58,324 nt of DNA from a virus (Duplodnaviria > Caudoviricetes). The position numbers and the translations under genes were made by a program. A model generated the notes under the pieces. It saw only the letters and a list, made by a program, of their open reading frames with translations, made no database searches and was not told the DNA's origin. The stretch lies in IMG/VR virus record IMGVR_UViG_3300043602_000067, positions 1 through 58,324 of that record, one strand, 5' to 3'. This document shows positions 15,980 through 27,600 of this stretch, in pieces (position 1 is the first letter of the stretch; every line of letters begins with the position of its first letter).

Positions 15980-16402
15980 GTGAGTTACGCCCGCCTGTAC
16001 TTCAAGCTCGGCTACTACGTCGTTTCGACGTTCATCATCGCCTATACGGCATGGAGTGTTGCCTGGTTGGCCGTCGAGGGCTGGCATGGCGACATCGGCA
16101 CCTCGATGCAGCTCATTTTGGCTGTCGGAGCGCTGGTTTTGTTCATGCTACGACTGATCAACGACGGGGTGCTGAAGTACGTCGATAAGATCCGCTTGAA
16201 GCGAGTTCTGGACAAAATATCGGCTGCACCGACCTCGCTGGCAGCGGAGTGGGGCTATATGGACATCAGTCGGTGGCGTCAACGCATGGATGAGGTCGAT
16301 TACGACGAGCTACGACTACGAGCGCTGGAAAGTGCCGCTGTAGCGGCTAAGATTGCCCGTGATGAGCGCCAATCCCACCCGAGCGATCTATCGACCCGGT
16401 AA
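15980..16402 (+). CDS. Membrane protein
   Basis: Two N-terminal hydrophobic segments. Confidence 0.5.
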   Translation: MSYARLYFKLGYYVVSTFIIAYTAWSVAWLAVEGWHGDIGTSMQLILAVGALVLFMLRLINDGVLKYVDKIRLKRVLDKISAAPTSLAAEWGYMDISRWRQRMDEVDYDELRLRALESAAVAAKIARDERQSHPSDLSTR

Positions 16403-17186
16403 GCGCGCCAAGAAGGTCCTCCAGCCGAGGAGCGCGCGACACCTTGGCCATCCGCACCTCGTGGCTGGGGCAAAGGACCTCCACCGCCATCCGATGCCCG
16501 AAACCGACGCTACAAGGCAGCCGCGGCCGTCTCATATCACCAAAGAGCACGATGCGATGGTCCAGCGGAACCTAGAGATCCTGGCAGCCGAAAATCCGGC
16601 TTCCGTGCGCTCCGAAGTCGAGATTTACAAGGAAAAGCTGGCCGAGACGCCGCCATCGAGCAAGCGCGAGCAGTACGCCGCTCTGGCGACGCACAGGGAG
16701 ATGGCCACGACCATTCTTGCCGCGGGAGGCACTTTCGACGAGGCTGCCGACTGGGCAGGCGTAACCCGTAGCACGGTGTCGGGCTGGTACGCCGACGCGG
16801 ACTTCCGCAAGCGCGTAGAAGAGCAGCGCTCGGTTGTGCAGTCCAAGATCCGGGGTAGGATTGAGTCATGGATGGACAGGCGCACAGCCGACCCGCAGGC
16901 GCTCGACAACGCCGACCCGCGCACCACGCTGGCCATCTATGACCGCATCAGCGGACCTTCTGGCGGACGAGCTGGACAGGGCACTCAGCAGCCGGTCACT
17001 GTCAACGTCGCTCTCTCATACAGCGAACTCATGGAACGAGCTATTAGCACTGCCGGATCGGCAGAAACCGCGAAGCGTGTGGATGACGCCAGCCAGGAAG
17101 GCAGCGATTTTCCGCTCCTTGAACGAGAAACTGCCGGAGGGCTTCCTGGTCCTACCGTGGCAGGCGGAGGCCCATCGAGCGACTGA
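16362..17186 (+). CDS. terS: Probable terminase small subunit (HTH)
   Basis: LAAGGTFDEAADWAGVTRSTVSGW HTH; directly upstream of and overlapping terL; start uncertain. Confidence 0.65.
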   Translation: MSANPTRAIYRPGKRAKKVLQPRSARHLGHPHLVAGAKDLHRHPMPETDATRQPRPSHITKEHDAMVQRNLEILAAENPASVRSEVEIYKEKLAETPPSSKREQYAALATHREMATTILAAGGTFDEAADWAGVTRSTVSGWYADADFRKRVEEQRSVVQSKIRGRIESWMDRRTADPQALDNADPRTTLAIYDRISGPSGGRAGQGTQQPVTVNVALSYSELMERAISTAGSAETAKRVDDASQEGSDFPLLERETAGGLPGPTVAGGGPSSD

Positions 17187-18564
17187 CCGCTTCCAAGTCT
17201 GGAATTGCGGCAGGCGTGTAGGTAAGACGACAGCAGGCGGGCGCGAGGCGTTCCTGCAGTGCATGGTTCCCGAGAGCTACGTGTGGATCGTGGCGCCCGA
17301 GATGAACCTGGCCGAGAAGGAATTCCGCATCGTCTGGAACTTGGCCGTGCGCAAGGGCCTGATCCCGGTCACAGGGAAGAGCAAGCGCGAGCGCTGGATC
17401 GAGTTCGAGAACGGCAGCAAGATCGAGTGTCGCTCGGCCGAGAACCCGGACCAGCTCATCGGTGAGGGCGTTGACCTGATGATCATTGCCGAGGCTGCGC
17501 GCCTGTCCCCGGCCATCTGGGAGGAGCTGCTGCGACCGACCCTTGCCGACCGTCCGGGGCGGGCCATCATGTCGTCCACGCCACGCGGCAAGAACTGGTT
17601 CTTCAATCGCTTCAACGATGGGCTGATCCACCTCGACGACGAGTGGACGGCGTTCCATGTTCCCAGCTCTGCTAATCCCCTGATTTTGAGGAGTGAGATC
17701 GAGCGCATCGATCGGCTGATCGAGCAGGACCCCATTGCCAACGCGGTGCTCGACCAGGAGTGGCGGGCCAACTTCATCACCTACAAGGGCGTCGTCTTCC
17801 CCGAGTTCCAGCGCGAGGTGCACGTGCGCCGCGAGCCATATATCCCCGGTCAGAAGACGATGCTCTGGGTGGACCCCGGCTCGACCAACCCGTACGCCTG
17901 CCTGCTGGTGCAGATCACCGGTGACGAGACGGTGCGCGTGATCAGCGAGATCTACCGCACCCAGAAGATCACCGACGAGATCATCAAGCTGGCGCAGGCT
18001 GCGTGGCCGTACGCCATGTTCGACGGTGGCGTGCCGGGCAACCCACCCAACCCCGAGCTGGAGGTCGTGGTGGACGAGGCCGCGGCCGAGGCAATCGCCG
18101 CGTGGCGCCTCGCCGGTTACCGTGCCTGGGGAGCTAAGCCCCCCTTGAAGACGGGCATCGACGTGTACCACCGCATGCTGCGCGACCCATTCCGCGTGGC
18201 CGACAAGACGCACGAGAACCCAGTGGGCATCTGGCCGCGCATCACGTTCGACCCGAGCTGCGAATACTCGATCCTCGAACACAACCTGTATCACTACCCC
18301 GATGAGGCCCGCCAGCGCTCGGAAGGCGGTCCGACCGAGGTACCGGTGGACGCTGACAACCACTCGATCAGCGCCATTCGCTACGGCCTGTACGCGCTGT
18401 GGCCCGAGCTGTTCAACGAATACCACCCACAAACCGAGATGGTGGTCACGACGCTGGAGGAGATGGGTATCGAGGAGCAACTCGACCGCATGCGCATCGA
18501 GGCGGGCTACGCCCCGCGTGAGTACGCCAGTTCGGACGACCAGTGGAGCCTGGGAGATTACTAG
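17083..18564 (+). CDS. terL: Terminase large subunit
   Basis: CGRRVGKT Walker A, LIGEGVDLMIIAEAA, SSTPRGKNWF, nuclease-domain VDPG and DADNHSISAIRY. Confidence 0.92.
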   Translation: MTPARKAAIFRSLNEKLPEGFLVLPWQAEAHRATDRFQVWNCGRRVGKTTAGGREAFLQCMVPESYVWIVAPEMNLAEKEFRIVWNLAVRKGLIPVTGKSKRERWIEFENGSKIECRSAENPDQLIGEGVDLMIIAEAARLSPAIWEELLRPTLADRPGRAIMSSTPRGKNWFFNRFNDGLIHLDDEWTAFHVPSSANPLILRSEIERIDRLIEQDPIANAVLDQEWRANFITYKGVVFPEFQREVHVRREPYIPGQKTMLWVDPGSTNPYACLLVQITGDETVRVISEIYRTQKITDEIIKLAQAAWPYAMFDGGVPGNPPNPELEVVVDEAAAEAIAAWRLAGYRAWGAKPPLKTGIDVYHRMLRDPFRVADKTHENPVGIWPRITFDPSCEYSILEHNLYHYPDEARQRSEGGPTEVPVDADNHSISAIRYGLYALWPELFNEYHPQTEMVVTTLEEMGIEEQLDRMRIEAGYAPREYASSDDQWSLGDY

Positions 18565-18731
18565 GAAGGGGGTGATGCCCATGCCACCGTTGGTGGAACC
18601 CTTCATAAGAGAACGCCTGCCCGCTTATCGGACCTCGCCGGGATACCGAGTCGAACGGACTCCCCGCCACATAAGCCCTGTGAGCGAGTTGTGCTCCGCT
18701 GCACTCAGCGGGCAGGCGCAGAAATTGTACC

Positions 18732-18761
18732 TTGACACCCCCACGGCGTAGCGTTTAGAGT
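18732..18761 (+). promoter_or_regulatory. Sigma70-type promoter in front of the structured RNA
   Basis: TTGACA-N18-TAGAGT. Confidence 0.55.
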
Positions 18762-18764
18762 CGG

Positions 18765-19129
18765 CGCCTGTCCTGCTGCGGAAGTGGTCGGCATGCAACG
18801 GCCCGCAGTACACCGAGGATGTTCGTCGCGAGAACACTGATCGGTGGGAGGCAGACTTAGACCGGAGGAGCCGCCTTTCAGGTCATGCCGTACTGTTCGA
18901 TCGGCAGCATTCGGGTAGGCACGGGGCGGCTTCTTGGTCCACTAGATGAACCGCTGGCGGATGTTTCCCATACTCCCAGCCCAGCGGCGAAATTGAATAC
19001 CCGGACCCTCGGTAGCAATTTTCAGTTAGCTGAACTCGCTCGCGCGAGCTTTGGCCCTGGCGATCGCCGTATCAGATCGAGGGTCCGGTCTTTTTGTTAC
19101 TCTGATCCCGCTACGAAACGAGACAGGTG
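18765..19129 (+). ncRNA. Candidate large structured non-coding RNA
   Basis: Five consecutive helical domains closed by CGCCTGTC(18765)/GACAGGTG(19122); G:U pairs favour the + strand; no convincing ORF. Confidence 0.6.
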
Positions 19130-19216
19130 AAGGAGGCCCAATGAACTGGACCATCTAGGGACGCACTGCGAGGACGCAGATGCCGTCCGTAGCCGCGTCC
19201 CGAAAGGGACAGTTCA

Positions 19217-19393
19217 TTGGGCAAGGGTGCAAACCGCGCGAGCGGTAATCCAGAGCACCGTCATAAGACGCACAAGCGCGGCGTGATGAAGCACGGGCGC
19301 AACTACCGCTGGGGCGGAACGACGCACAGCGTTACCAAGTACCGCAGCCGACATAACCTGCCGCCAGGCAAGCACGGCGGGAAAGGTGGCTGA
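19217..19393 (+). CDS. Small very basic protein (58 aa, TTG start)
   Basis: MGKGANRASGNPEHRHKTHKRGVMKHGRNYRWGG...KHGGKGG; AAAGGGA upstream; not in the ORF track. Confidence 0.4.
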   Translation: MGKGANRASGNPEHRHKTHKRGVMKHGRNYRWGGTTHSVTKYRSRHNLPPGKHGGKGG

Positions 19394-19500
19394 TACCCTG
19401 ACAGGCGTCGGGATTTTCATGTGGCGCCGTGTTCCACAGTCTTACCGCGGCGCCACGCCCGGCTTCCCCTGTGCCCGACCGATGGAGTAGAGTCCCGCTG

Positions 19501-21240
19501 ATGGCTCGAACCCCGATGCGCGATCAGATCGCGGCGCAGGAAGCTCAGATACAGGAACTGCTCAAGGCCAACGAGCAGGTCTACTCCGAGTACACGCTGC
19601 TCAGTCGGCGCGTCGAAGAGCTGGCCTACATCGACCTCAACAACATCACCGGGGCTGAGGAGGACATCCTCCCGCAAGCCAAGCGCGTGCAGACGATCCA
19701 GCGCATCCGTCGTCTGCGCAGCGAGAACCCGATGGCCAAGCAGGCGATCAAGCTGGCCCTGCGCTTTGTGCTTGGCAAGGGCGTCACCTACGAGATCCGC
19801 GACTCCAACACGAAACGGATCATCGACGACTTCTGGAACGATCCGGTCAACCAGGGCGTGTGGACGAGCCACTTCAACCAGGTTCTCAACTTCGACGACA
19901 ACCTGACCGATGGTGAGCAGTTCGTGGCCCTCTTCACGACGCCTGGTGAGTCGCCCTACGTGCGCCTCGGCATCGTGCCCATGGAAGAGATCACCAACAT
20001 CCTGTACGACCCCGACAACGGGCGCATGCCGATCTGGTACCGGCGCGTGTATCGGGTCAAGAAGTGGGACGCCAAGCTCAATAACAACGAGGGTGGCTGG
20101 GCGCCTGACGTAGCCACCAAGCCGATCGTCAGGTATTACCGCGACTTCCGCGTCAGCGACGAGTACCTGGCCGACGTAGAAGAGCGCGGGTTGAAGATCC
20201 CCGCGGACCTACAGGCCGAGGGCAAGATCAAGCACCGCATGGTCAACCCGGTGCGCATGCGCTCGGGCCTGCGCGGCATCAGCGAGCTGTTCGCCAGCCG
20301 CGAGTGGTTCCGCGTGATCAAGGAGTTCATGGAGGACCGCGGCGCGGTCAACGCACAGGCCAACGCGTTGACCATGCAGCGCAAGGTCACCGGTGGGCCG
20401 ATCGCCGTGGCAGGCATGTCGGGCAAGATCGGCGGCATCCAGATGGGCGTCAACGACCAGCCGCTGTTGCCCAGCACGTTCGGTCGTAGGCCACTGGCTG
20501 GCTCGATGCTCGATACCAACCAGAACGTCGAGTACAAGGGCATCCGCGCCGATACCGGAGCACCGAGCGCCGACAAGGACGCCGAGCGGCTGATGACCAT
20601 CGCAGGCTCGGGTACGGCTACGCCTAACCACTACTTCGGTGGCACCAATGCGGCTCTGGCCGGTGCTCAGTCGGTCGAGGTGGCGGTCATCAAGGCGTTC
20701 GAGGACTTCCAGACCTACCTGCGCAACGACGACCGCGAGCTGGCCGAATTCGTGATCGCTATGGCGCTCGATAAGCCGGTGGCCGAGGTCGAGGCCGACG
20801 AGAAGGAGATCGTCTGGAACTTCCCACCGATTATGACCCAGGACATCGTGAAGTGGGTGACCGGCTTCGCCCAGTGGGCACAGCAGGTGGCGCCCAAGAA
20901 CCGCGTCGTCCGACGCGAGGCCATCCGCCTCGTGGCTGGTGTACTCGGCGTGCACAACATCGAGATGATCTGGGACGAGGTGGAGGCCGAGGAAACGCGC
21001 TTGGCCAAGGAAGAGGACGAGACGCGCAAGATGCAGATGGAGCAGCAGCAGAAGGCGCTCGATGCGCCGACTGTCATCGCTGGTGGTCCTCCAAGCGCGA
21101 ACGGAAATGGTGCCAAACCACCTGGTCAGAAGGCTACAACCGGGCCTACCGCACAGGGCCAAAGCCCGCAGATCTCGCGCCTCCAGGCGGGTCGTCCGCC
21201 CAATGAAGGTGCGACTGGACCACGCACCCACCGACAATGA
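19501..21240 (+). CDS. Portal protein
   Basis: Position after terL; size; NPMAKQAIKL...VLGKG, IDDFWNDPVN, DGEQF, RGISEL, FPPI. Confidence 0.85.
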   Translation: MARTPMRDQIAAQEAQIQELLKANEQVYSEYTLLSRRVEELAYIDLNNITGAEEDILPQAKRVQTIQRIRRLRSENPMAKQAIKLALRFVLGKGVTYEIRDSNTKRIIDDFWNDPVNQGVWTSHFNQVLNFDDNLTDGEQFVALFTTPGESPYVRLGIVPMEEITNILYDPDNGRMPIWYRRVYRVKKWDAKLNNNEGGWAPDVATKPIVRYYRDFRVSDEYLADVEERGLKIPADLQAEGKIKHRMVNPVRMRSGLRGISELFASREWFRVIKEFMEDRGAVNAQANALTMQRKVTGGPIAVAGMSGKIGGIQMGVNDQPLLPSTFGRRPLAGSMLDTNQNVEYKGIRADTGAPSADKDAERLMTIAGSGTATPNHYFGGTNAALAGAQSVEVAVIKAFEDFQTYLRNDDRELAEFVIAMALDKPVAEVEADEKEIVWNFPPIMTQDIVKWVTGFAQWAQQVAPKNRVVRREAIRLVAGVLGVHNIEMIWDEVEAEETRLAKEEDETRKMQMEQQQKALDAPTVIAGGPPSANGNGAKPPGQKATTGPTAQGQSPQISRLQAGRPPNEGATGPRTHRQ

Positions 21241-21299
21241 CGTTGTATCTTGTATGACAACCTTGCGAGGGACGCCCTCTTCACCACCGATAGGAGCAC

Positions 21300-21638
21300 A
21301 TGAAAATGGCTGAAGACGAGAAGACTCAGGAAGAGAAGGACGCCGAGGCAGAGGCAGCGAAGCAGCCGAAGGCCAAGCCAGCAGCCAAGGCCAAGACGAC
21401 GCCCCCGGCCGTAGATGCCAAGGCTGGCGCTGGCGACAGCACCAAGGCCAAGATGCTGAAGGCAATTGGCGCCAAGGCCGAGGACGTGCTGGCCTACAAC
21501 GCAGAGGCCAAGATCCTCGTCACCAAGCAGGGCGGCAAGTACCAGCTCACTGCCGATGGCAATAAGCTGAAGCACCTGGCCGGTCCCGCGCCGACCGGTG
21601 GCAAGAAGGCGGCTGCAGACGAGGACGACGAGGAATAA
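21300..21638 (+). CDS. Small K/A-rich head-region protein
   Basis: AGGAG RBS; position. Confidence 0.6.
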   Translation: MKMAEDEKTQEEKDAEAEAAKQPKAKPAAKAKTTPPAVDAKAGAGDSTKAKMLKAIGAKAEDVLAYNAEAKILVTKQGGKYQLTADGNKLKHLAGPAPTGGKKAAADEDDEE

Positions 21639-21642
21639 CCCC

Positions 21643-22815
21643 ATGAAGAACCAGAAGCCCGAAGCACCACAGGACATCAAGACCGTCGTTCAGGAAAGCC
21701 TGGGCGCGGTTGAGGCCGTGTGGGCGGAGAACGCCGAAGGTCTACCGCAGGCGGACGTGGTGATCATCCGGCCGGGCGAGAGCATGAACCGGCGCGAGTA
21801 CCCGCGCGAGGCCATCGAGGCGGCAGTCAAGTCGGGCTTCTGGGACGACACCCCGATGTTCGTCAATCACGGCGATGCGAAGATGCCGCGCAAGCGCGAC
21901 GTGCGCGATCTACGGGCGCGGATCGACAAGGGTTCGACCTATATCGGTACTGAAGGCGAAGCGCGCGGGAAGGTGACGTTCATCGATCCCGAGTTCGCAA
22001 AGTTCGCCAAGAATGCTGGTCCAAGCATCGGTTTGAGCGCGGTGCACGAATTTCAGGGCCAGCGCTACCGCGGTAATGACGGGCACTATCACGAGCGCGT
22101 GAACCAGTTCCTTGTCAACCACACCGTGGATTTTGTAGCATTCCCAGCGGCGGGCGGTGGGATCGCTCAGTTCCTACCGGCACAGGAAAGTGAGGACGAC
22201 GTGGATTACAACAGCCCGCTGCTGACGCTCGAAGCGCTCAAGCAGCACCGGCCGGATCTCATCGACGCGCTCGCCGCAGAGGCGGACGACGGCGGTGATG
22301 ACGGCGACGACAAGGACAAGAAGCCCGAGGTGCCGTTACCGGCCCCTGTGCCCCAGCCGACGCCAGAGCCTCCCGAGGGCTTCGTGACGCTGGCGCAGGC
22401 GAAGGCGTTCGCAGAGGAGTCGGCGCAGCGCGTGGTCGAGTCCTTCCAGACGACCGAGAAGAAGAAGGCCGAGGCGAAGGCTTCGATCTCCGCGCACATG
22501 GCCAAGTCGGGTCTTCCTGACAAGACCAAGATGCGTCTGCTCTCGGCTTTCGAGGGCCAGGAGGAGTACGACCAGAAGGCCGTGCAGGAGGCCATCGAGG
22601 TCGCTGCCGAGGAGCTGAAGGAGACCGGTTGGCATGGGCCGCGGGTCATCGGCCTCGGTGACTCGTCTGCGCGCGAGGGCGAGGACAAGGGCGCCGATCC
22701 TGTTACGCTCGGTAAGCTCTACCCGACCATGACGGCCGTGGAAGAGCAACTGGCGTTCCGACCGGGGTCCGGCCGCAAGCTGGCCCAGGACGCTGAAGCA
22801 GGAAAGGCGAACTAG
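21643..22815 (+). CDS. Capsid maturation protease / scaffold fusion
   Basis: IIRPGESMNRREYP, FVNH, IGLS, VDFVAFPAAGG, followed by a helical charged C-terminus. Confidence 0.8.
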   Translation: MKNQKPEAPQDIKTVVQESLGAVEAVWAENAEGLPQADVVIIRPGESMNRREYPREAIEAAVKSGFWDDTPMFVNHGDAKMPRKRDVRDLRARIDKGSTYIGTEGEARGKVTFIDPEFAKFAKNAGPSIGLSAVHEFQGQRYRGNDGHYHERVNQFLVNHTVDFVAFPAAGGGIAQFLPAQESEDDVDYNSPLLTLEALKQHRPDLIDALAAEADDGGDDGDDKDKKPEVPLPAPVPQPTPEPPEGFVTLAQAKAFAEESAQRVVESFQTTEKKKAEAKASISAHMAKSGLPDKTKMRLLSAFEGQEEYDQKAVQEAIEVAAEELKETGWHGPRVIGLGDSSAREGEDKGADPVTLGKLYPTMTAVEEQLAFRPGSGRKLAQDAEAGKAN

Positions 22816-24626: not shown

Positions 24627-27600
24627 ATGGCGGCAAAGATCACCCTCGGTATCATCGCGCGCAATGCAGCGGCGACACTCGACCAGTGTCTGACCAGCGC
24701 AGCGCCCTACGTGGACGAGATCATCGTCGGGCTGGGCGGCGAGTCCACCGACGAGACCGAGGAGATGGCCAAGGACTTCCTCGGGGAGTGGGCTGAAATG
24801 GCCCGAGTAGGGGAGCGTACCTGGGCGGTGTTCCCCATCGATTGGCGAGATGACTTTTCCTACGCCCGCAACGAGGTTTTGACTCAGGCCACCGGCGAGT
24901 GGTTCCTGTGGCTCGACGCCGATGACATCCTGCTCGGTGGTGAGCACATGCAGGAGTGGATAGCCCGCGTACCAGAGGGCAACTGCTTCTGGGCGCCCTA
25001 CCGCTACGACGCCGACGAGCATGGCAACGTGTCCACGACGCTATGGCGCGAGCGCTTGGTCAAGAACCCGAGTGAGTGGCACTGGGAAGATCCCATCCAT
25101 GAGTTCCTGATGCTCGATCCCGAGGTGCCCCTAGCCCTCGTCCAGATGGACGACGTGGCGGTGGTGCACAACCCCAAGCGCAACAAGGTCAAGGGCACGC
25201 GCAACCTGGAGATCCTGTACCGCGAGCTGGCGCGCACCGAGCCTGAGCCGACGCAGCGGACGCTGTTCTACCTGTTCCGCGAGAACGCCTCACGAGGCAA
25301 TCTGCACGAGGCGCTGCTGCACGCCAATCGCTACATCAGCCGCGCCCAGTTCAACGACGAGGCGTACCAGATGGCTATCGGCGTGTCCAACACGCTGCGC
25401 GTACAGGGTCGCTTGGACGAGGCTCGGGTGGCCGCGCACAAGGCGATCGAGATGGACGCCACGTGGCCCGACGCGTACTTCCTCTTGGCGCGCATCGCGT
25501 ACGAGCAGGGCCAGTTCGTCGAGGCCATCGAGTGGACCAAGAACGGGGCCACCAAGCAGCCACCGCAGACGAGCGTAATCATCGAGCCACGTATCTACGA
25601 CTACTGGCCGTACTACATCCTTGGGCTGGCCTACCGCGGCCTGAACGACTGGGAGATGGCGCTGCCCAACTTCCAGCGCGCCGCGTCGGTGGTGCCTGAC
25701 CCACAGCTCATGGCGCTGATGGAAGAGGCTTCTCGGGCACAGGAGGGCAAGAAGGTGCTCGACGCCTTCCTGACGCTGCACGAGCACTTGGGCCGCAACG
25801 ACGAGTGGCTCAAGGCGCGGCGCATCTTCACGTACATTCCGAAGCTGATCGAGCAGCATCCCGAGGTACGCCGCCGTCACATCAACACGCGGCTGTCCAC
25901 GGCGCACGTGGATGACCCCCAGATCATGGTGGACTTCTACCGCAACAACCCCGGCTGGGCGCCCATGGACGAGGAGATGATCTGGTCGCAGGGCTGGCGC
26001 GAGCACCCGCGCATGGCCTTCGCTCGTAAGAGCGTCACCTGTGATCCACCGGCGACGATCCTCGACATCGGCTCCAGCGACGGCTTCATCAGCCTGCCGC
26101 TGGCCAAGGAAGGCCATATCGTCGAGGGCTACGACCTGGACCCGCGGTGTGTTGACCTGGCCAACGAGAGGGCGGCAAAATGGGACCTGCGGGCGCATTA
26201 CAACGTCGGCTCGATAGACGATGCAAAGGGGAAGTACGATGTGGCGTTTGCGTTCGAGATACTCGAACATCTCGTTGATCCGAGCGCGTTCCTCGACAAG
26301 ATCGACGAGCACGCGCGCAAGGTCGTCATCACGACGCCATTCCTGGCTTGGGAGGGTGGTCGTGTTGCTGACTGGCAGAAGGTCGAGCCGAAAGGCCACC
26401 TCCGTGTCTTCGACCTCACCGACATGGAGCACGAAATCGCTCATCGAGGACGGGTTTTTGACCTCCACCGAGAACCGCACGGCTCTACTGCGTGGATATT
26501 CGCCTCCTACCGACCCCGCCAAACCTACGCCGGAACCGTCGAGTTCCTCGCCCCAAACACTCTCGAAGAGTGGTCGCCTCGGAAACTACAGGCAGAGGGC
26601 CTGGGCGGCTCGGAAACGGCGCTCATCCGACTAGCCGAGGAGTTGTTCTATGCAGGAGGAGACGACACCCAAAGCCGACTCTGTACGGTCTATGGGCGGA
26701 TCGACGACCCTGGCTACTACAACGGTGTCCGCTATCGGACAATGCAGTCTTTCGACCCTCGCGTTGGTAGCGACGTGCTCGTTGCATGGCGCTACCCGGA
26801 GGCTGCGGATCTACCCGTCAGGGCTGGTCGAATGGTCCTGTGGATGCACGATACTGATGCAGGAGAACGACTTACTCCCGTTCGAGCTGCCCGCTTCGAT
26901 GCGATCGTTGTTCTCTCGGAGTGGCATAAGAGCCACATGCTGAAGACCTACCCGTGGCTCGATGTTGAGAAGCTCGTGGTCATCGGCAACGGCGTGGATC
27001 GAGAGAGGTTCGCGCTTCGGAAAGATACCCCGTCGGGACGGGCTGCAGTTCGTGAAAACGCGCCCAAGCGTGAACCTCTGCGGGTAGCGTACACGTCTAG
27101 TCCAGACCGCGGTCTCGATGTCGTGCTCGAACACGTCTGGCCCAAGGTGATCGAGCAGGTGCCTGACGCCGAGCTGCACGTCTACTACGGCTGGAACAAC
27201 TTCGATGCGCTGGGTGCTGCCTACCCACACCTGGCCGAGTTCAGGCAGAAAGTAGCAACATTGCTTATTGACACCAAGAACGTGGTTCAGCACGGTCGAG
27301 TCGCGCCGGACCAACTGGCTACCGAGCTGCTGAAGTCATCCGTTTGGCTCTACCCATCGCATAACTTCGATGAGACCTATTGCATCAGCGCCGTGGAGGC
27401 TCAACTGGCAGGTGCCATCCCTGTGACCACCACTCGCGGTGCGCTGGCCGAGACGGTTGCTGGTGGAGTCTTTATTGAAGGTACGATTGGTGATGAAGGC
27501 GTGGCCGAGCAGTATGCAAAGGCGGTGGTTGACCTGCTCACTATTGATGCCAAAGACATCGGTACCATGCGCAAAATGATCAAGAAGGCGGCTCCAGCAG

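What the first reader, a model, noticed from the sequence alone, without database searches (positions are those of the whole stretch)
18732..19129. Promoter-driven ~360-nt multi-domain structured RNA between terminase and portal genes
Seen: terL and portal are separated by ~930 nt. After TTGACA-N18-TAGAGT almost every segment pairs: closing helix 18765-72/19122-29; TGCTGCGG/CCGCAGTA (18774-18810); CACCGA/TCGGTG with a GGAT...CTGA kink-turn-like internal loop (18811-46); a 15-bp bulged stem (18860-75/18925-39); CCGCTGG/CCAGCGG (18951-87), whose loop CTCCCA is complementary to TGGGAG at 18845-50; and a 13-bp stem (19001-13/19076-88) enclosing three mini-hairpins and followed by a T-run. Established: phages encode large structured RNAs (phi29 pRNA, GOLLD, ROOL), but I cannot match this one to a known family. 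Inference: a new ncRNA class, possibly linked to packaging or late-gene control given its position.
Basis: partly seen in the sequence, partly recalled or inferred. Interest (0 to 1): 0.85.

Follow-up and report, generated by a model that had tools for sequence, protein, structure and literature searches.

The report
Conserved phage RNA beside portal gene
A roughly 330-base stretch between the terminase and portal genes of an uncultured soil phage is kept as folded RNA in its one available relative, matches no known RNA family, and its job is still unknown.

Summary
The window is a whole 58-kb soil phage record. terL ends at 18564 and portal starts at 19501, leaving a 936-nt gap.

The only close relative I could fetch is L002 (terL 71% and portal 73% amino-acid identity). 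Its 500-nt gap holds the same element:
- Identical blocks of 18, 14, 8, 16, 9 and 7 nt.
- Four helices that still pair: 27 pairs unchanged, 8 changed on one side, 8 changed on both sides and 2 broken, of 45 compared.

Two hairpins are far more stable than shuffles in both phages: 18860-18939 (z -3.1/-3.4) and 19001-19088 (z -4.0/-4.2). The whole-region fold is not (z -1.1 to -1.7).

Not conserved in L002: the closing helix, the pseudoknot, the kink-turn-like loop, the three mini-hairpins and the T-run.

There is no Rfam match, no tRNA or tmRNA, no shared ORF and no further copy in IMG/VR.

The terL-portal junction carries different cargo in distant relatives. I therefore read this as an independently transcribed accessory ncRNA cassette (0.4). 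The main rival is a cis-acting antitermination leader for the structural genes (0.27). With effectively two sequences, function stays open.

The parts
18732..18761 (+). Sigma-70-type promoter-like site, TTGACA-N18-TAGAGT, with GTAG in the spacer.
   Evidence: 10 of 12 matches, the only such site in 16000-22000; same build (TTGACA, GTAG in spacer, TAnnnT) at 820, 7289 and 11863 on the + strand. L002 keeps TTGACA and GTAGCG, but its -10 is GACACT and the scan does not flag it.
18764..18781 (+). Block A, GCGCCTGTCCTGCTGCGG, the probable 5' end of the RNA. Its 3' half is the 5' strand of P2.
   Evidence: 18 of 18 nt identical in L002 5772-5789. No other true copy in IMG/VR: 45 16-mer hits, of which only L003 (the same contig as L002) is related.
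18774..18810 (+). P2 hairpin, TGCTGCGG/CCGCAGTA.
   Evidence: 8 pairs, 6 unchanged and 2 changed on one side in L002, where a 2-nt bulge is needed. Present in the MFE.
18811..18846 (+). P3 hairpin, CACCGA/TCGGTG. Its inner helix and internal loop are specific to the window.
   Evidence: 6 pairs, 3 unchanged, 1 changed on one side, 1 changed on both sides (A-T to C-G), 1 broken in L002. L002 has only an 8-nt loop in place of the window's inner helix.
18843..18855 (+). Block B, GGTGGGAGGCAGA, an invariant purine-rich stretch. It may close the 5' domain by pairing with block A (P1).
   Evidence: Identical in L002 5830-5842. The separate MFE folds of both 5' domains pair GCC(U) of block A with (A)GGC of block B. 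All these positions are invariant, so the pairing cannot be tested by covariation.
18860..18939 (+). P4, a long bulged hairpin with an invariant 3' strand GGGCGGCTTCTTGGTC.
   Evidence: z -3.07 in the window and -3.38 in L002, 0 of 200 shuffles each. 34 of 34 cells paired against 38-59% in slid controls, with 4 one-sided and 1 two-sided change. Five G-U pairs in the window make it + strand specific. The CM scores 109.5 bits on the + strand of L044 and 20.2 on the - strand.
18940..18995 (+). Variable linker holding the window's P5 hairpin (18951-57/18981-87).
   Evidence: z -1.91 in the window and -0.41 in L002. The sequences cannot be aligned, and the loop-to-block-B pseudoknot is absent from L002.
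18996..19096 (+). Block D (AATACCCGG), P6 stem 19001-13/19076-88, block E (TCCGGTC), then a T-run in the window only.
   Evidence: z -4.04 and -4.19, 0 of 200 shuffles each. Of the 13 aligned stem pairs, 6 change on both sides and 1 on one side. Stem extension next to the conserved CCGG is reached by 51 of 20000 shuffles (window) and 14 of 20000 (L002). The T-run is flagged as terminator-like in the window and is absent in L002.
19397..19412 (+). Second terminator-like hairpin with a T-rich tail, after the window-specific 58-aa ORF.
   Evidence: With 19074-19091 and a weak site at 25461, it is one of only three + strand terminator-like sites on the + strand upstream of the minus-strand gene block that starts near 48.5 kb.
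19464..19503 (+). Conserved portal-proximal block, TTCCCCTGTGCCC-N11-TAGAGT-N7-ATG.
   Evidence: Seen directly: L002 has TTCCCCTGTGCCC-N11-TAAAGT-N7-ATGGCT. The N-terminal extension of P0002 translates to a similar block. The 13-mer occurs exactly once in the window. That it is a weak promoter for a leaderless start is my inference.

Best explanation
I read this as an accessory, independently transcribed non-coding RNA cassette (an 'RNA moron') lodged in the terL-portal junction.

Proposed mechanism:
- Host RNA polymerase starts at the sigma-70-type promoter at 18732-18761.
- The transcript begins near 18764-18768 and runs about 330 nt.
- In this phage it ends at the P6 hairpin and U-run (about 19095), or at the next terminator-like hairpin (19397-19412).
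- The RNA folds into a 5' domain (P2 and P3, probably closed by pairing of invariant blocks A and B), a long bulged hairpin P4, a variable linker and a long hairpin P6.
- The invariant unpaired or junction stretches (GCGCCUGUCC, GGGAGGCAGA, GAAAAUAC) are the likely contact surface for a protein or RNA partner. The RNA would act in trans on the host or on infection, not as part of the virion assembly line.

Shown: conservation, RNA-level pairing, strand, absence of an ORF, absence from known families, and the variable cargo at this junction.

Inferred: transcription from this promoter, the RNA ends, trans action and the partner.
For: - The flanking genes are well diverged: terL 71% and portal 73% amino-acid identity, third-codon identity 0.55 and 0.64. 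The spacer nevertheless keeps identical blocks of 18, 14, 8, 16, 9 and 7 nt.
- Of 45 helix pairs compared, 27 are unchanged, 8 changed on one side, 8 changed on both sides and 2 broken.
- P4 and P6 fold better than all 200 shuffles in both phages.
- G-U pairs and the CM scores point to the + strand.
- There is no shared reading frame. tblastx matches hop between frames. The one frame open from block A has no start codon in the window, and the two sequences fall out of frame after P4. Protein searches with two translations found nothing.
- The promoter-like site belongs to a family of four on the + strand.
- Terminator-like hairpins follow the RNA in the window.
- The junction is a cargo site. 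Of 34 related loci that hold both genes, 7 have under 60 nt between them and 27 have 175-1587 nt of unrelated content. That content includes a C-5 DNA methylase gene in L045 (E 4.8e-7).
- The P4 covariance model found nothing in 5 near-complete genomes (92-100% complete) of distant relatives.
- A conserved block with a -10-like hexamer 7 nt before the ATG lies at the portal start. This suggests portal need not depend on this promoter.
Against: - Only two full sequences and one 151-nt fragment exist, so the covariation has no real statistics. The shuffle control is uninformative (257 of 500).
- I aligned the helices by hand, with bulges placed to fit.
- The -10 of L002 is poor (GACACT), and no promoter or terminator is flagged there. 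The 'own promoter, own terminator' picture therefore holds cleanly only in the window.
- No consensus promoter lies between 19.1 and 47 kb on the + strand; three 9-of-12 sites match the number expected by chance. The promoter at 18732 may thus be the real promoter of the structural genes, which favours the leader reading.
- No expression data exist.
- No partner or target was found. Blocks A and B have no antisense match elsewhere in the phage.
Confidence: 0.4

Rival explanations
1. Cis-acting leader that controls read-through into the structural genes. The promoter at 18732 is the promoter of the 28-kb portal-to-tail gene array. The nascent structured RNA modifies RNA polymerase so that it passes the terminators at 19074-19095 and 19397-19412. 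The logic is that of HK022 put, EAR or conAn2.
For: - 18732 is the only 10-of-12 promoter-like site ahead of the + strand genes 19.5-47 kb.
- The + strand terminator-like sites of that stretch cluster right behind the RNA.
- Large RNA antiterminators of 260-600 bp at the head of very long operons of mobile elements are documented (PMC8191782, abstract and passages).
- put acts without any protein (PMC9378689, passages).
- The window has a small basic ORF just downstream (19217-19393).
Against: - Relatives manage with terL and portal adjacent, or with unrelated genes at this place. The element is therefore not a core part of late control in this phage group.
- L002 has no U-run after P6 and no flagged terminator.
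- L002 lacks the small ORF.
- The portal start carries its own conserved promoter-like block.
Confidence: 0.27
2. Lambda-type late control. A constitutive promoter is followed by a terminated short transcript, and an unidentified phage protein antiterminator loads at the promoter and early transcribed region. The RNA fold would be largely incidental.
For: - Promoter, invariant first 18 transcribed nt and a terminator about 330 nt downstream in the window.
- The Q logic as described in the abstracts of PMC7171158 and 10.1101/2022.03.25.485794 (listing).
Against: - Compensatory changes in P6, P3 and P4 show selection on RNA pairing far from the promoter.
- No Q-like, sigma or antiterminator family was found in the ORFs scanned with Pfam: 6, 10, 10, 10 and 10 ORFs.
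- terL, not a regulator gene, lies upstream.
- The terminator is not conserved in L002.
Confidence: 0.08
3. DNA-level element: protein-binding sites or cruciforms for packaging, replication or recombination.
For: Short invariant blocks separated by variable spacers look like protein-binding sites. The CCGG-based stems are palindromic.
Against: - P4 relies on G-U pairs, five of them in the window, which would be A-C mismatches in a DNA cruciform or on the other strand.
- The one-sided changes are all wobble-compatible.
- The - strand scores 20.2 bits against 109.5.
Confidence: 0.07
4. Packaging RNA that bridges portal and terminase, as phi29 pRNA does.
For: Only its position between terL and portal.
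Against: - No match to any Rfam model at E<=10.
- The large terminase is a full-length 576-aa Terminase_6N protein.
- Relatives with the same terL and portal families lack the RNA.
Confidence: 0.04
5. Relic or neutral spacer whose similarity reflects shared descent only.
For: Only two sequences. The whole-region z-scores in the window are ordinary. Long identical runs also occur in the coding flanks.
Against: - Six two-sided compensatory changes sit in one 13-bp stem flanked by invariant blocks.
- The stem extension is significant in each phage separately.
- P4 and P6 beat every one of 200 shuffles in both.
Confidence: 0.08

Closest known systems
conAn2 RNA of conjugative plasmids (pLS20 family; PMC8191782, abstract and passages read)
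   Same: A large (260-600 bp), poorly conserved RNA region behind a promoter at the head of a very long gene array of a mobile element, with terminators downstream. A small protein gene lies nearby, but here only in the window.
   Different: conAn2 follows the conAn1 gene and needs it for long-range action. Here the small ORF follows the RNA and is missing in L002. There is no sequence relation. Antitermination is untested here.
HK022 put RNA (PMC9378689, passages read)
   Same: A phage-encoded cis-acting RNA just downstream of a sigma-70 promoter that could let polymerase pass terminators without a protein.
   Different: put is about 70 nt with two stem-loops and serves early operons. This element is about 330 nt with at least four helices and lies inside the structural module.
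GOLLD and ROOL large phage-associated RNAs (PMC12286853 and PMC5737381: search listing and start of abstracts only)
   Same: Large structured RNAs carried by phages or prophages with unknown function, found by comparative analysis.
   Different: No covariance-model match. This element is much smaller, has no tRNA neighbours, and is known from two or three sequences only.
phi29 prohead RNA (PMC5066667: search listing and start of abstract only)
   Different: No model match. A different type of packaging ATPase (Terminase_6N). Relatives with the same motor proteins lack the RNA.
Actino-pnp motif (RF01688)
   Same: The lower stem of P6 with CCUCGGUAG...AUCGAG resembles the model consensus.
   Different: 20.9 bits against a gathering score of 47.7, E 0.15. 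The resemblance is absent from L002, where these very positions have changed. There is no pnp gene.

Membership tests
Any Rfam 15 family (4227 models) | Covariance-model score at or above the family's gathering score | tested here: not met
   0 matches in the whole window. At E<=10 only Actino-pnp (20.9 of 47.7 bits) and MIR1031 (12 of 100) in 18500-19560, and only Ms_IGR-5 (11.2 of 45) in L002 5700-6260.
Actino-pnp (RF01688) | Conserved hairpin sequence kept in homologues | tested here: not met
   L002 has a different stem sequence at the same place and no hit. That this family sits upstream of pnp genes is recalled, not checked here. No pnp gene is present: the flanks are terL and portal.
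tRNA / tmRNA | ARAGORN-detectable cloverleaf or tmRNA | tested here: not met
   0 genes in the window.
phi29-type prohead RNA | Match to the pRNA model. That Rfam holds such a model is recalled. | tested here: not met
   No such match at E<=10.
phi29-type prohead RNA | RNA bound to proheads and required for packaging | not testable with these tools
   Needs purified proheads.
HK022 put | About 70 nt, two stem-loops, directly downstream of an early promoter (PMC9378689 passages) | tested here: not met
   The element is about 330 nt with at least four helices and lies between terL and portal.
HK022 put | Protein-free suppression of termination in cis | not testable with these tools
   Needs transcription assays.
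conAn bipartite antitermination | 260-600 bp RNA region at the start of a long operon that contains terminators (PMC8191782 passages) | tested here: inconclusive
   Size and position fit in the window. In L002 no terminator is flagged.
conAn bipartite antitermination | ConAn1 protein gene immediately upstream of the RNA | tested here: not met
   terL lies upstream. The only small ORF lies downstream, has no Pfam family and is absent from L002.
Lambda-type Q / late promoter / tR' | Q-family antiterminator gene next to the promoter | tested here: not met
   No such Pfam family in the ORFs scanned. Unknown small proteins are not excluded.
Moron-type accessory cassette (concept recalled, no call) | Own promoter and terminator between genes of a late operon | tested here: inconclusive
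   Both are flagged in the window. In L002 the -35 is kept, but neither promoter nor terminator is flagged.
Moron-type accessory cassette (concept recalled, no call) | Present in some relatives and absent or replaced in others at the same junction | tested here: met
   Of 34 loci, 7 have under 60 nt and 27 have 175-1587 nt of unrelated content. The P4 model found nothing in the distant relatives.

The most novel reading that the evidence does not exclude
It is a new class of large, RNA-only (or RNA plus small basic protein) processive antiterminator. The nascent 330-nt RNA rides on host RNA polymerase and carries it through the terminators at 19095 and 19412 into the 28-kb structural gene array. 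That would make it a fourth kind of RNA antiterminator beside put, EAR and conAn2, and the first for a phage late operon.
Probability: 0.25. Interest if true: 0.7.

Novelty: new variant of a known kind. Interest (0 to 1): 0.45.

Why it matters
Few large structured RNAs are known from phages, and none of unknown function has yet been explained mechanistically in a soil phage. If this one acts in trans, it is a new accessory RNA that a phage carries at a cargo site where relatives carry a DNA methylase or small proteins. That placement would point to a role in host takeover or counter-defence. If it acts in cis, it adds a new RNA solution to the problem of expressing a very long late operon. Either way it is a compact, testable object: a promoter, about 330 nt and a terminator. 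Its weakness is that it is known from only two full sequences.

Tried and rejected
SEARCHES FOR MORE COPIES
- DNA search of GenBank phages with the whole gap: no match.
- Portal protein against the same phages: only 8 distant hits at 24-28% identity.
- IMG/VR scans:
  - terL protein gave 1 relative.
  - A block B plus P4 pattern gave 2 hits. One is L003; the other (L004) shows no flanking similarity.
  - Block C 16-mer gave 37 hits and block A 16-mer 45 hits. Only L003 carries the other blocks.
  - The portal alignment gave 37 loci, of which only L044 is close.
- Metagenome scan with terL: 2 loci at 31-35%.
- Genome scan with portal: 1 locus at 34%.

PORTAL HOMOLOGUES I COULD NOT FOLLOW UP
- The protein search found portal homologues at 61-71% identity (P0002-P0008).

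SEQUENCING RUNS
- No RNA holder was listed.
- Contigs laid from 4 runs: X1 holds the whole stretch and may be its source.
- X2 gave a 151-nt contig at depth 2 over 18986-19107, with 13 substitutions and 8 indels.
  - Most listed changes lie inside the P6 interior.
  - 19077 T>C turns the G-U pair 19012-19077 into G-C.

ALIGNMENT AND STRUCTURE TOOLS
- Structure-aware aligners (mafft-qinsi and xinsi) are not installed.
- A plain MAFFT alignment misplaces the helices and gives an SCI of 0.37, which I do not use.

CODING ALTERNATIVE
- Rejected.

OTHER NEGATIVE RESULTS
- Antisense targets of blocks A and B in the phage: none.
- Earlier notes of this scan: no look-alike in other windows.
- Three literature searches named no RNA at a terL-portal junction.

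LIMITS ON THE NOVELTY CLAIM
- 'Not described' therefore rests on Rfam and these three searches only.
Full report
WHAT THE WINDOW IS
The window is a whole IMG/VR virus record of 58,324 nt, estimated 97% complete, with about 62% G+C. Near-identical DNA stands in a soil metagenome run. Genes are tightly packed:
- The + strand carries genes from 839 to 47041.
- The - strand carries a replication block at 48.5-58.3 kb with family A DNA polymerase, a PD-(D/E)XK nuclease and MT-A70.
- terL is 16834-18564 (Terminase_6N, E 1.1e-7).
- Portal starts at 19501. Its homologues include proteins carrying PF05136.
- The gap between them is 936 nt, one of the largest non-coding spaces in the genome.

THE OBSERVATION
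The promoter-like site TTGACA-N18-TAGAGT at 18732-18761 is real. It is the only such site in 16000-22000.

The fold of the whole region is no better than shuffles: z -1.68 for 18765-19129 (7 of 100 shuffles as good) and z -1.07 for 18764-19095 (19 of 100). In 62% G+C sequence, 'almost every segment pairs' is what one expects.

By domain the picture changes:
- 18860-18939: z -3.07, 0 of 200 shuffles.
- 18996-19095: z -4.04, 0 of 200 shuffles.
- 5' domain 18764-18859: z -0.55.
- 18940-18995: z -1.91.

RELATIVES
Only one close relative could be fetched: IMG/VR contig IMGVR_UViG_3300034155_000024, held as L002, L003 and L044. Its terL is 71% and its portal 73% identical in protein. Third codon positions are 0.55 and 0.64 identical.

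Its terL-portal gap is 500 nt and holds the same element. Identical blocks:
- GCGCCTGTCCTGCTGCGG, 18 nt.
- CGGTGGGAGGCAGA, 14 nt.
- GACCGGAG, 8 nt.
- GGGCGGCTTCTTGGTC, 16 nt.
- AATACCCGG, 9 nt.
- TCCGGTC, 7 nt.

These blocks are separated by stretches that differ in sequence and length. tblastx matches hop between frames and contain stops. The one frame that is open in both from block A has no start codon in the window, and the two sequences leave the common frame after P4. Two translations found no protein among 5.8 billion. It is not a gene for a protein.

PAIRING IN THE TWO SEQUENCES
I used the identical blocks as anchors and placed a 2-nt bulge in P2 and a 1-nt bulge in P6 of L002. This is a hand alignment that leans towards the structure.

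| Helix | Pairs | Unchanged | One side changed | Both sides changed | Broken |
|---|---|---|---|---|---|
| P2 | 8 | 6 | 2 | 0 | 0 |
| P3 | 6 | 3 | 1 | 1 | 1 (in L002) |
| P4 | 18 | 12 | 4 | 1 | 1 (in the window) |
| P6 | 13 | 6 | 1 | 6 | 0 |
| Total | 45 | 27 | 8 | 8 | 2 |

L002 has one extra pair in P6.

Further checks:
- On the unedited MAFFT alignment of P4, 34 of 34 cells pair, against 38-59% when the partner is slid by 1-3 columns. With two rows the shuffle control says nothing (257 of 500).
- For P6, the stem extension next to the conserved CCGG is reached by 51 of 20000 shuffles of the window's interior and 14 of 20000 of L002's.
- L002's P4 and P6 also beat all 200 shuffles (z -3.38 and -4.19). 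Its whole element gives z -3.57.

The one-sided changes all pass through G-U, and P4 has five G-U pairs in the window. A covariance model of block B plus P4 scores 109.5 bits on the + strand of L044 and 20.2 on the - strand. The structure is therefore RNA, on the + strand.

WHAT IS NOT CONSERVED
- Closing helix. 18765-72/19122-29 has 6 contiguous Watson-Crick pairs, and 849 of 5000 shuffles do as well. L002 has a 10-bp helix between the other half of block A and the sequence right after P6 (6 of 5000), but in another register. The two do not support each other by covariation.
- Pseudoknot. L002 has no CTCCCA partner for TGGGAG.
- P3 interior. L002's P3 has a plain 8-nt loop where the window has the inner helix and the 'kink-turn-like' loop.
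- P6 interior. It is three mini-hairpins in the window and one long hairpin in L002.
- T-run. L002 has CCCCGC after P6, and no terminator is flagged there.
- Promoter. L002 keeps TTGACA and GTAGCG, but its -10 is GACACT and is not flagged.

A THIRD, PARTIAL SEQUENCE
A 151-nt contig at depth 2 from another soil run (X2) covers 18986-19107 with 13 substitutions and 8 indels. The listed changes lie mostly in the P6 interior. 19077 T>C turns the G-U pair 19012-19077 into G-C. This agrees with the stem but is weak evidence.

KNOWN FAMILIES
- No Rfam family reaches its gathering score in the window.
- At E<=10 the only hits are Actino-pnp on P6 (20.9 bits against 47.7, E 0.15), a microRNA model, and in L002 a different sRNA model at 11.2 bits.
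- The Actino-pnp resemblance sits exactly on the positions that L002 has changed, so it is chance.
- ARAGORN finds no tRNA or tmRNA.

HOW WIDE THE FAMILY IS
- Scans of IMG/VR with blocks A and C gave 45 and 37 hits, all unrelated except L003.
- The P4 model finds only the window and L044 among 41 sources.
- It finds nothing in 5 near-complete genomes (92-100% complete) of distant portal relatives.
- Portal homologues at 61-71% identity exist in Logan, JGI and ENA assemblies (P0002-P0008).

SURROUNDINGS
1. The promoter belongs to a family. TTGACA, a spacer holding GTAG, then TAnnnT occurs at 820, 7289, 11863 and 18732 on the + strand.
2. From 19 kb to the end of the + strand genes near 47 kb, the only + strand terminator-like sites are 19074-19091, 19397-19412 and a weak one at 25461. 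No further consensus promoter stands there beyond chance.
3. The portal start carries a conserved block, TTCCCCTGTGCCC-N11-TA(G/A)AGT-N7-ATGGCT, in both phages. It is also visible in the N-terminal extension of P0002. Its geometry would fit a weak promoter for a leaderless start. That is my inference.
4. The window has extra material that L002 lacks: 167 nt before the promoter with a 12-bp inverted repeat, and after the RNA a 13-bp hairpin and a 58-aa basic ORF.
5. The junction is variable in the wider family.
   - Of 37 related IMG/VR loci, 34 hold both genes.
   - 7 of these have under 60 nt between them and 27 have 175-1587 nt.
   - Most of the longer gaps are filled by open frames unrelated to this element.
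   - One is a C-5 cytosine methylase (E 4.8e-7), and two carry weak helix-turn-helix matches below Pfam's cut-off.
   - Several of the 34 are duplicates of one another.

HOW IT MOST LIKELY WORKS
Selection on RNA pairing, a promoter of the phage's own type in front, terminator-like hairpins behind, and a junction that holds alternative cargo in relatives together fit an accessory cassette that makes a free RNA of about 330 nt. The 'moron' concept is recalled, not from a call. The invariant unpaired stretches would be the contact surface for a partner. I give this 0.4.

The main rival, at 0.27, is a cis-acting leader. 18732 is the only strong promoter ahead of 28 kb of structural genes, the terminators sit right behind the RNA, and large RNA antiterminators at the head of long operons of mobile elements are known:
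- conAn2, 260-600 bp (PMC8191782).
- put, about 70 nt and protein-free (PMC9378689).

Against the rival: relatives do without the element, L002 lacks the U-run and the small ORF, and portal has its own conserved upstream block.

A lambda-type protein antiterminator (0.08) does not explain the compensatory changes far from the promoter, and no Q-like family was found in the 46 ORFs scanned with Pfam. A DNA-level site (0.07) is at odds with the G-U pairs. A packaging RNA (0.04) rests on position alone. A neutral relic (0.08) is at odds.

VERDICT
This is a real, strand-specific, conserved RNA structure of about 330 nt with no known family, restricted as far as can be seen to one lineage of soil phages. 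Two long hairpins and two short ones are supported. The function is open, and the evidence base is two sequences and a fragment.

Noticed in passing
window 820, 7289, 11863, 18732 (+) and 7262 (-): A family of promoter-like sites: TTGACA, a 17-18-nt spacer that always holds GTAG on the + strand, then TAnnnT. L002 keeps TTGACA and GTAG at its copy. The GTAG may be a regulator site.
   Followed up: partly
window 19464-19503; L002 6160-6200: Conserved block TTCCCCTGTGCCC-N11-TA(G/A)AGT-N7-ATGGCT at the portal start. In L002 this ATG opens a 10-codon mini-ORF whose stop overlaps the real portal ATG (TGATG). It looks like a weak promoter for a leaderless start.
   Followed up: partly
L045 3260-3943 (same in L078); L057 671-1222; L058 1354-1791: In distant relatives the terL-portal junction carries other cargo. 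One is a C-5 cytosine DNA methylase (Pfam E 4.8e-7). Others are small proteins with weak helix-turn-helix matches below Pfam's cut-off.
   Followed up: partly
window 18614-18625 / 18707-18718: A perfect 12-nt inverted repeat (CGCCTGCCCGCT / AGCGGGCAGGCG) in the 167 nt between terL and the promoter. This stretch is absent from L002. Its 3' arm is also 85% complementary to the start of block A (18710-22 with 18761-73).
   Followed up: no
window 19131-19393: A 13-bp hairpin (19136-48/19210-22) and a 58-aa Lys/Arg/His/Gly-rich ORF with no Pfam family follow the RNA. Both are absent from L002. Short contigs of two other soil runs cover them (X2 19154-19304 with 2 differences; X3 19112-19262 with 9).
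   Followed up: partly
window 19418-19568: A 151-nt contig of a freshwater-sediment run (X4) is identical to the portal-proximal block and portal start. Near-identical phage DNA therefore occurs outside the source sample.
   Followed up: no
window 18859-18866 / 19084-19091: The base of P4's 5' strand (AGACCGGA) is perfectly complementary to the base of P6's 3' strand (TCCGGTCT). Seven of these pairs are kept in L002 because both blocks are invariant. This could be an alternative long-range pairing or a side effect of the CCGG palindrome.
   Followed up: no
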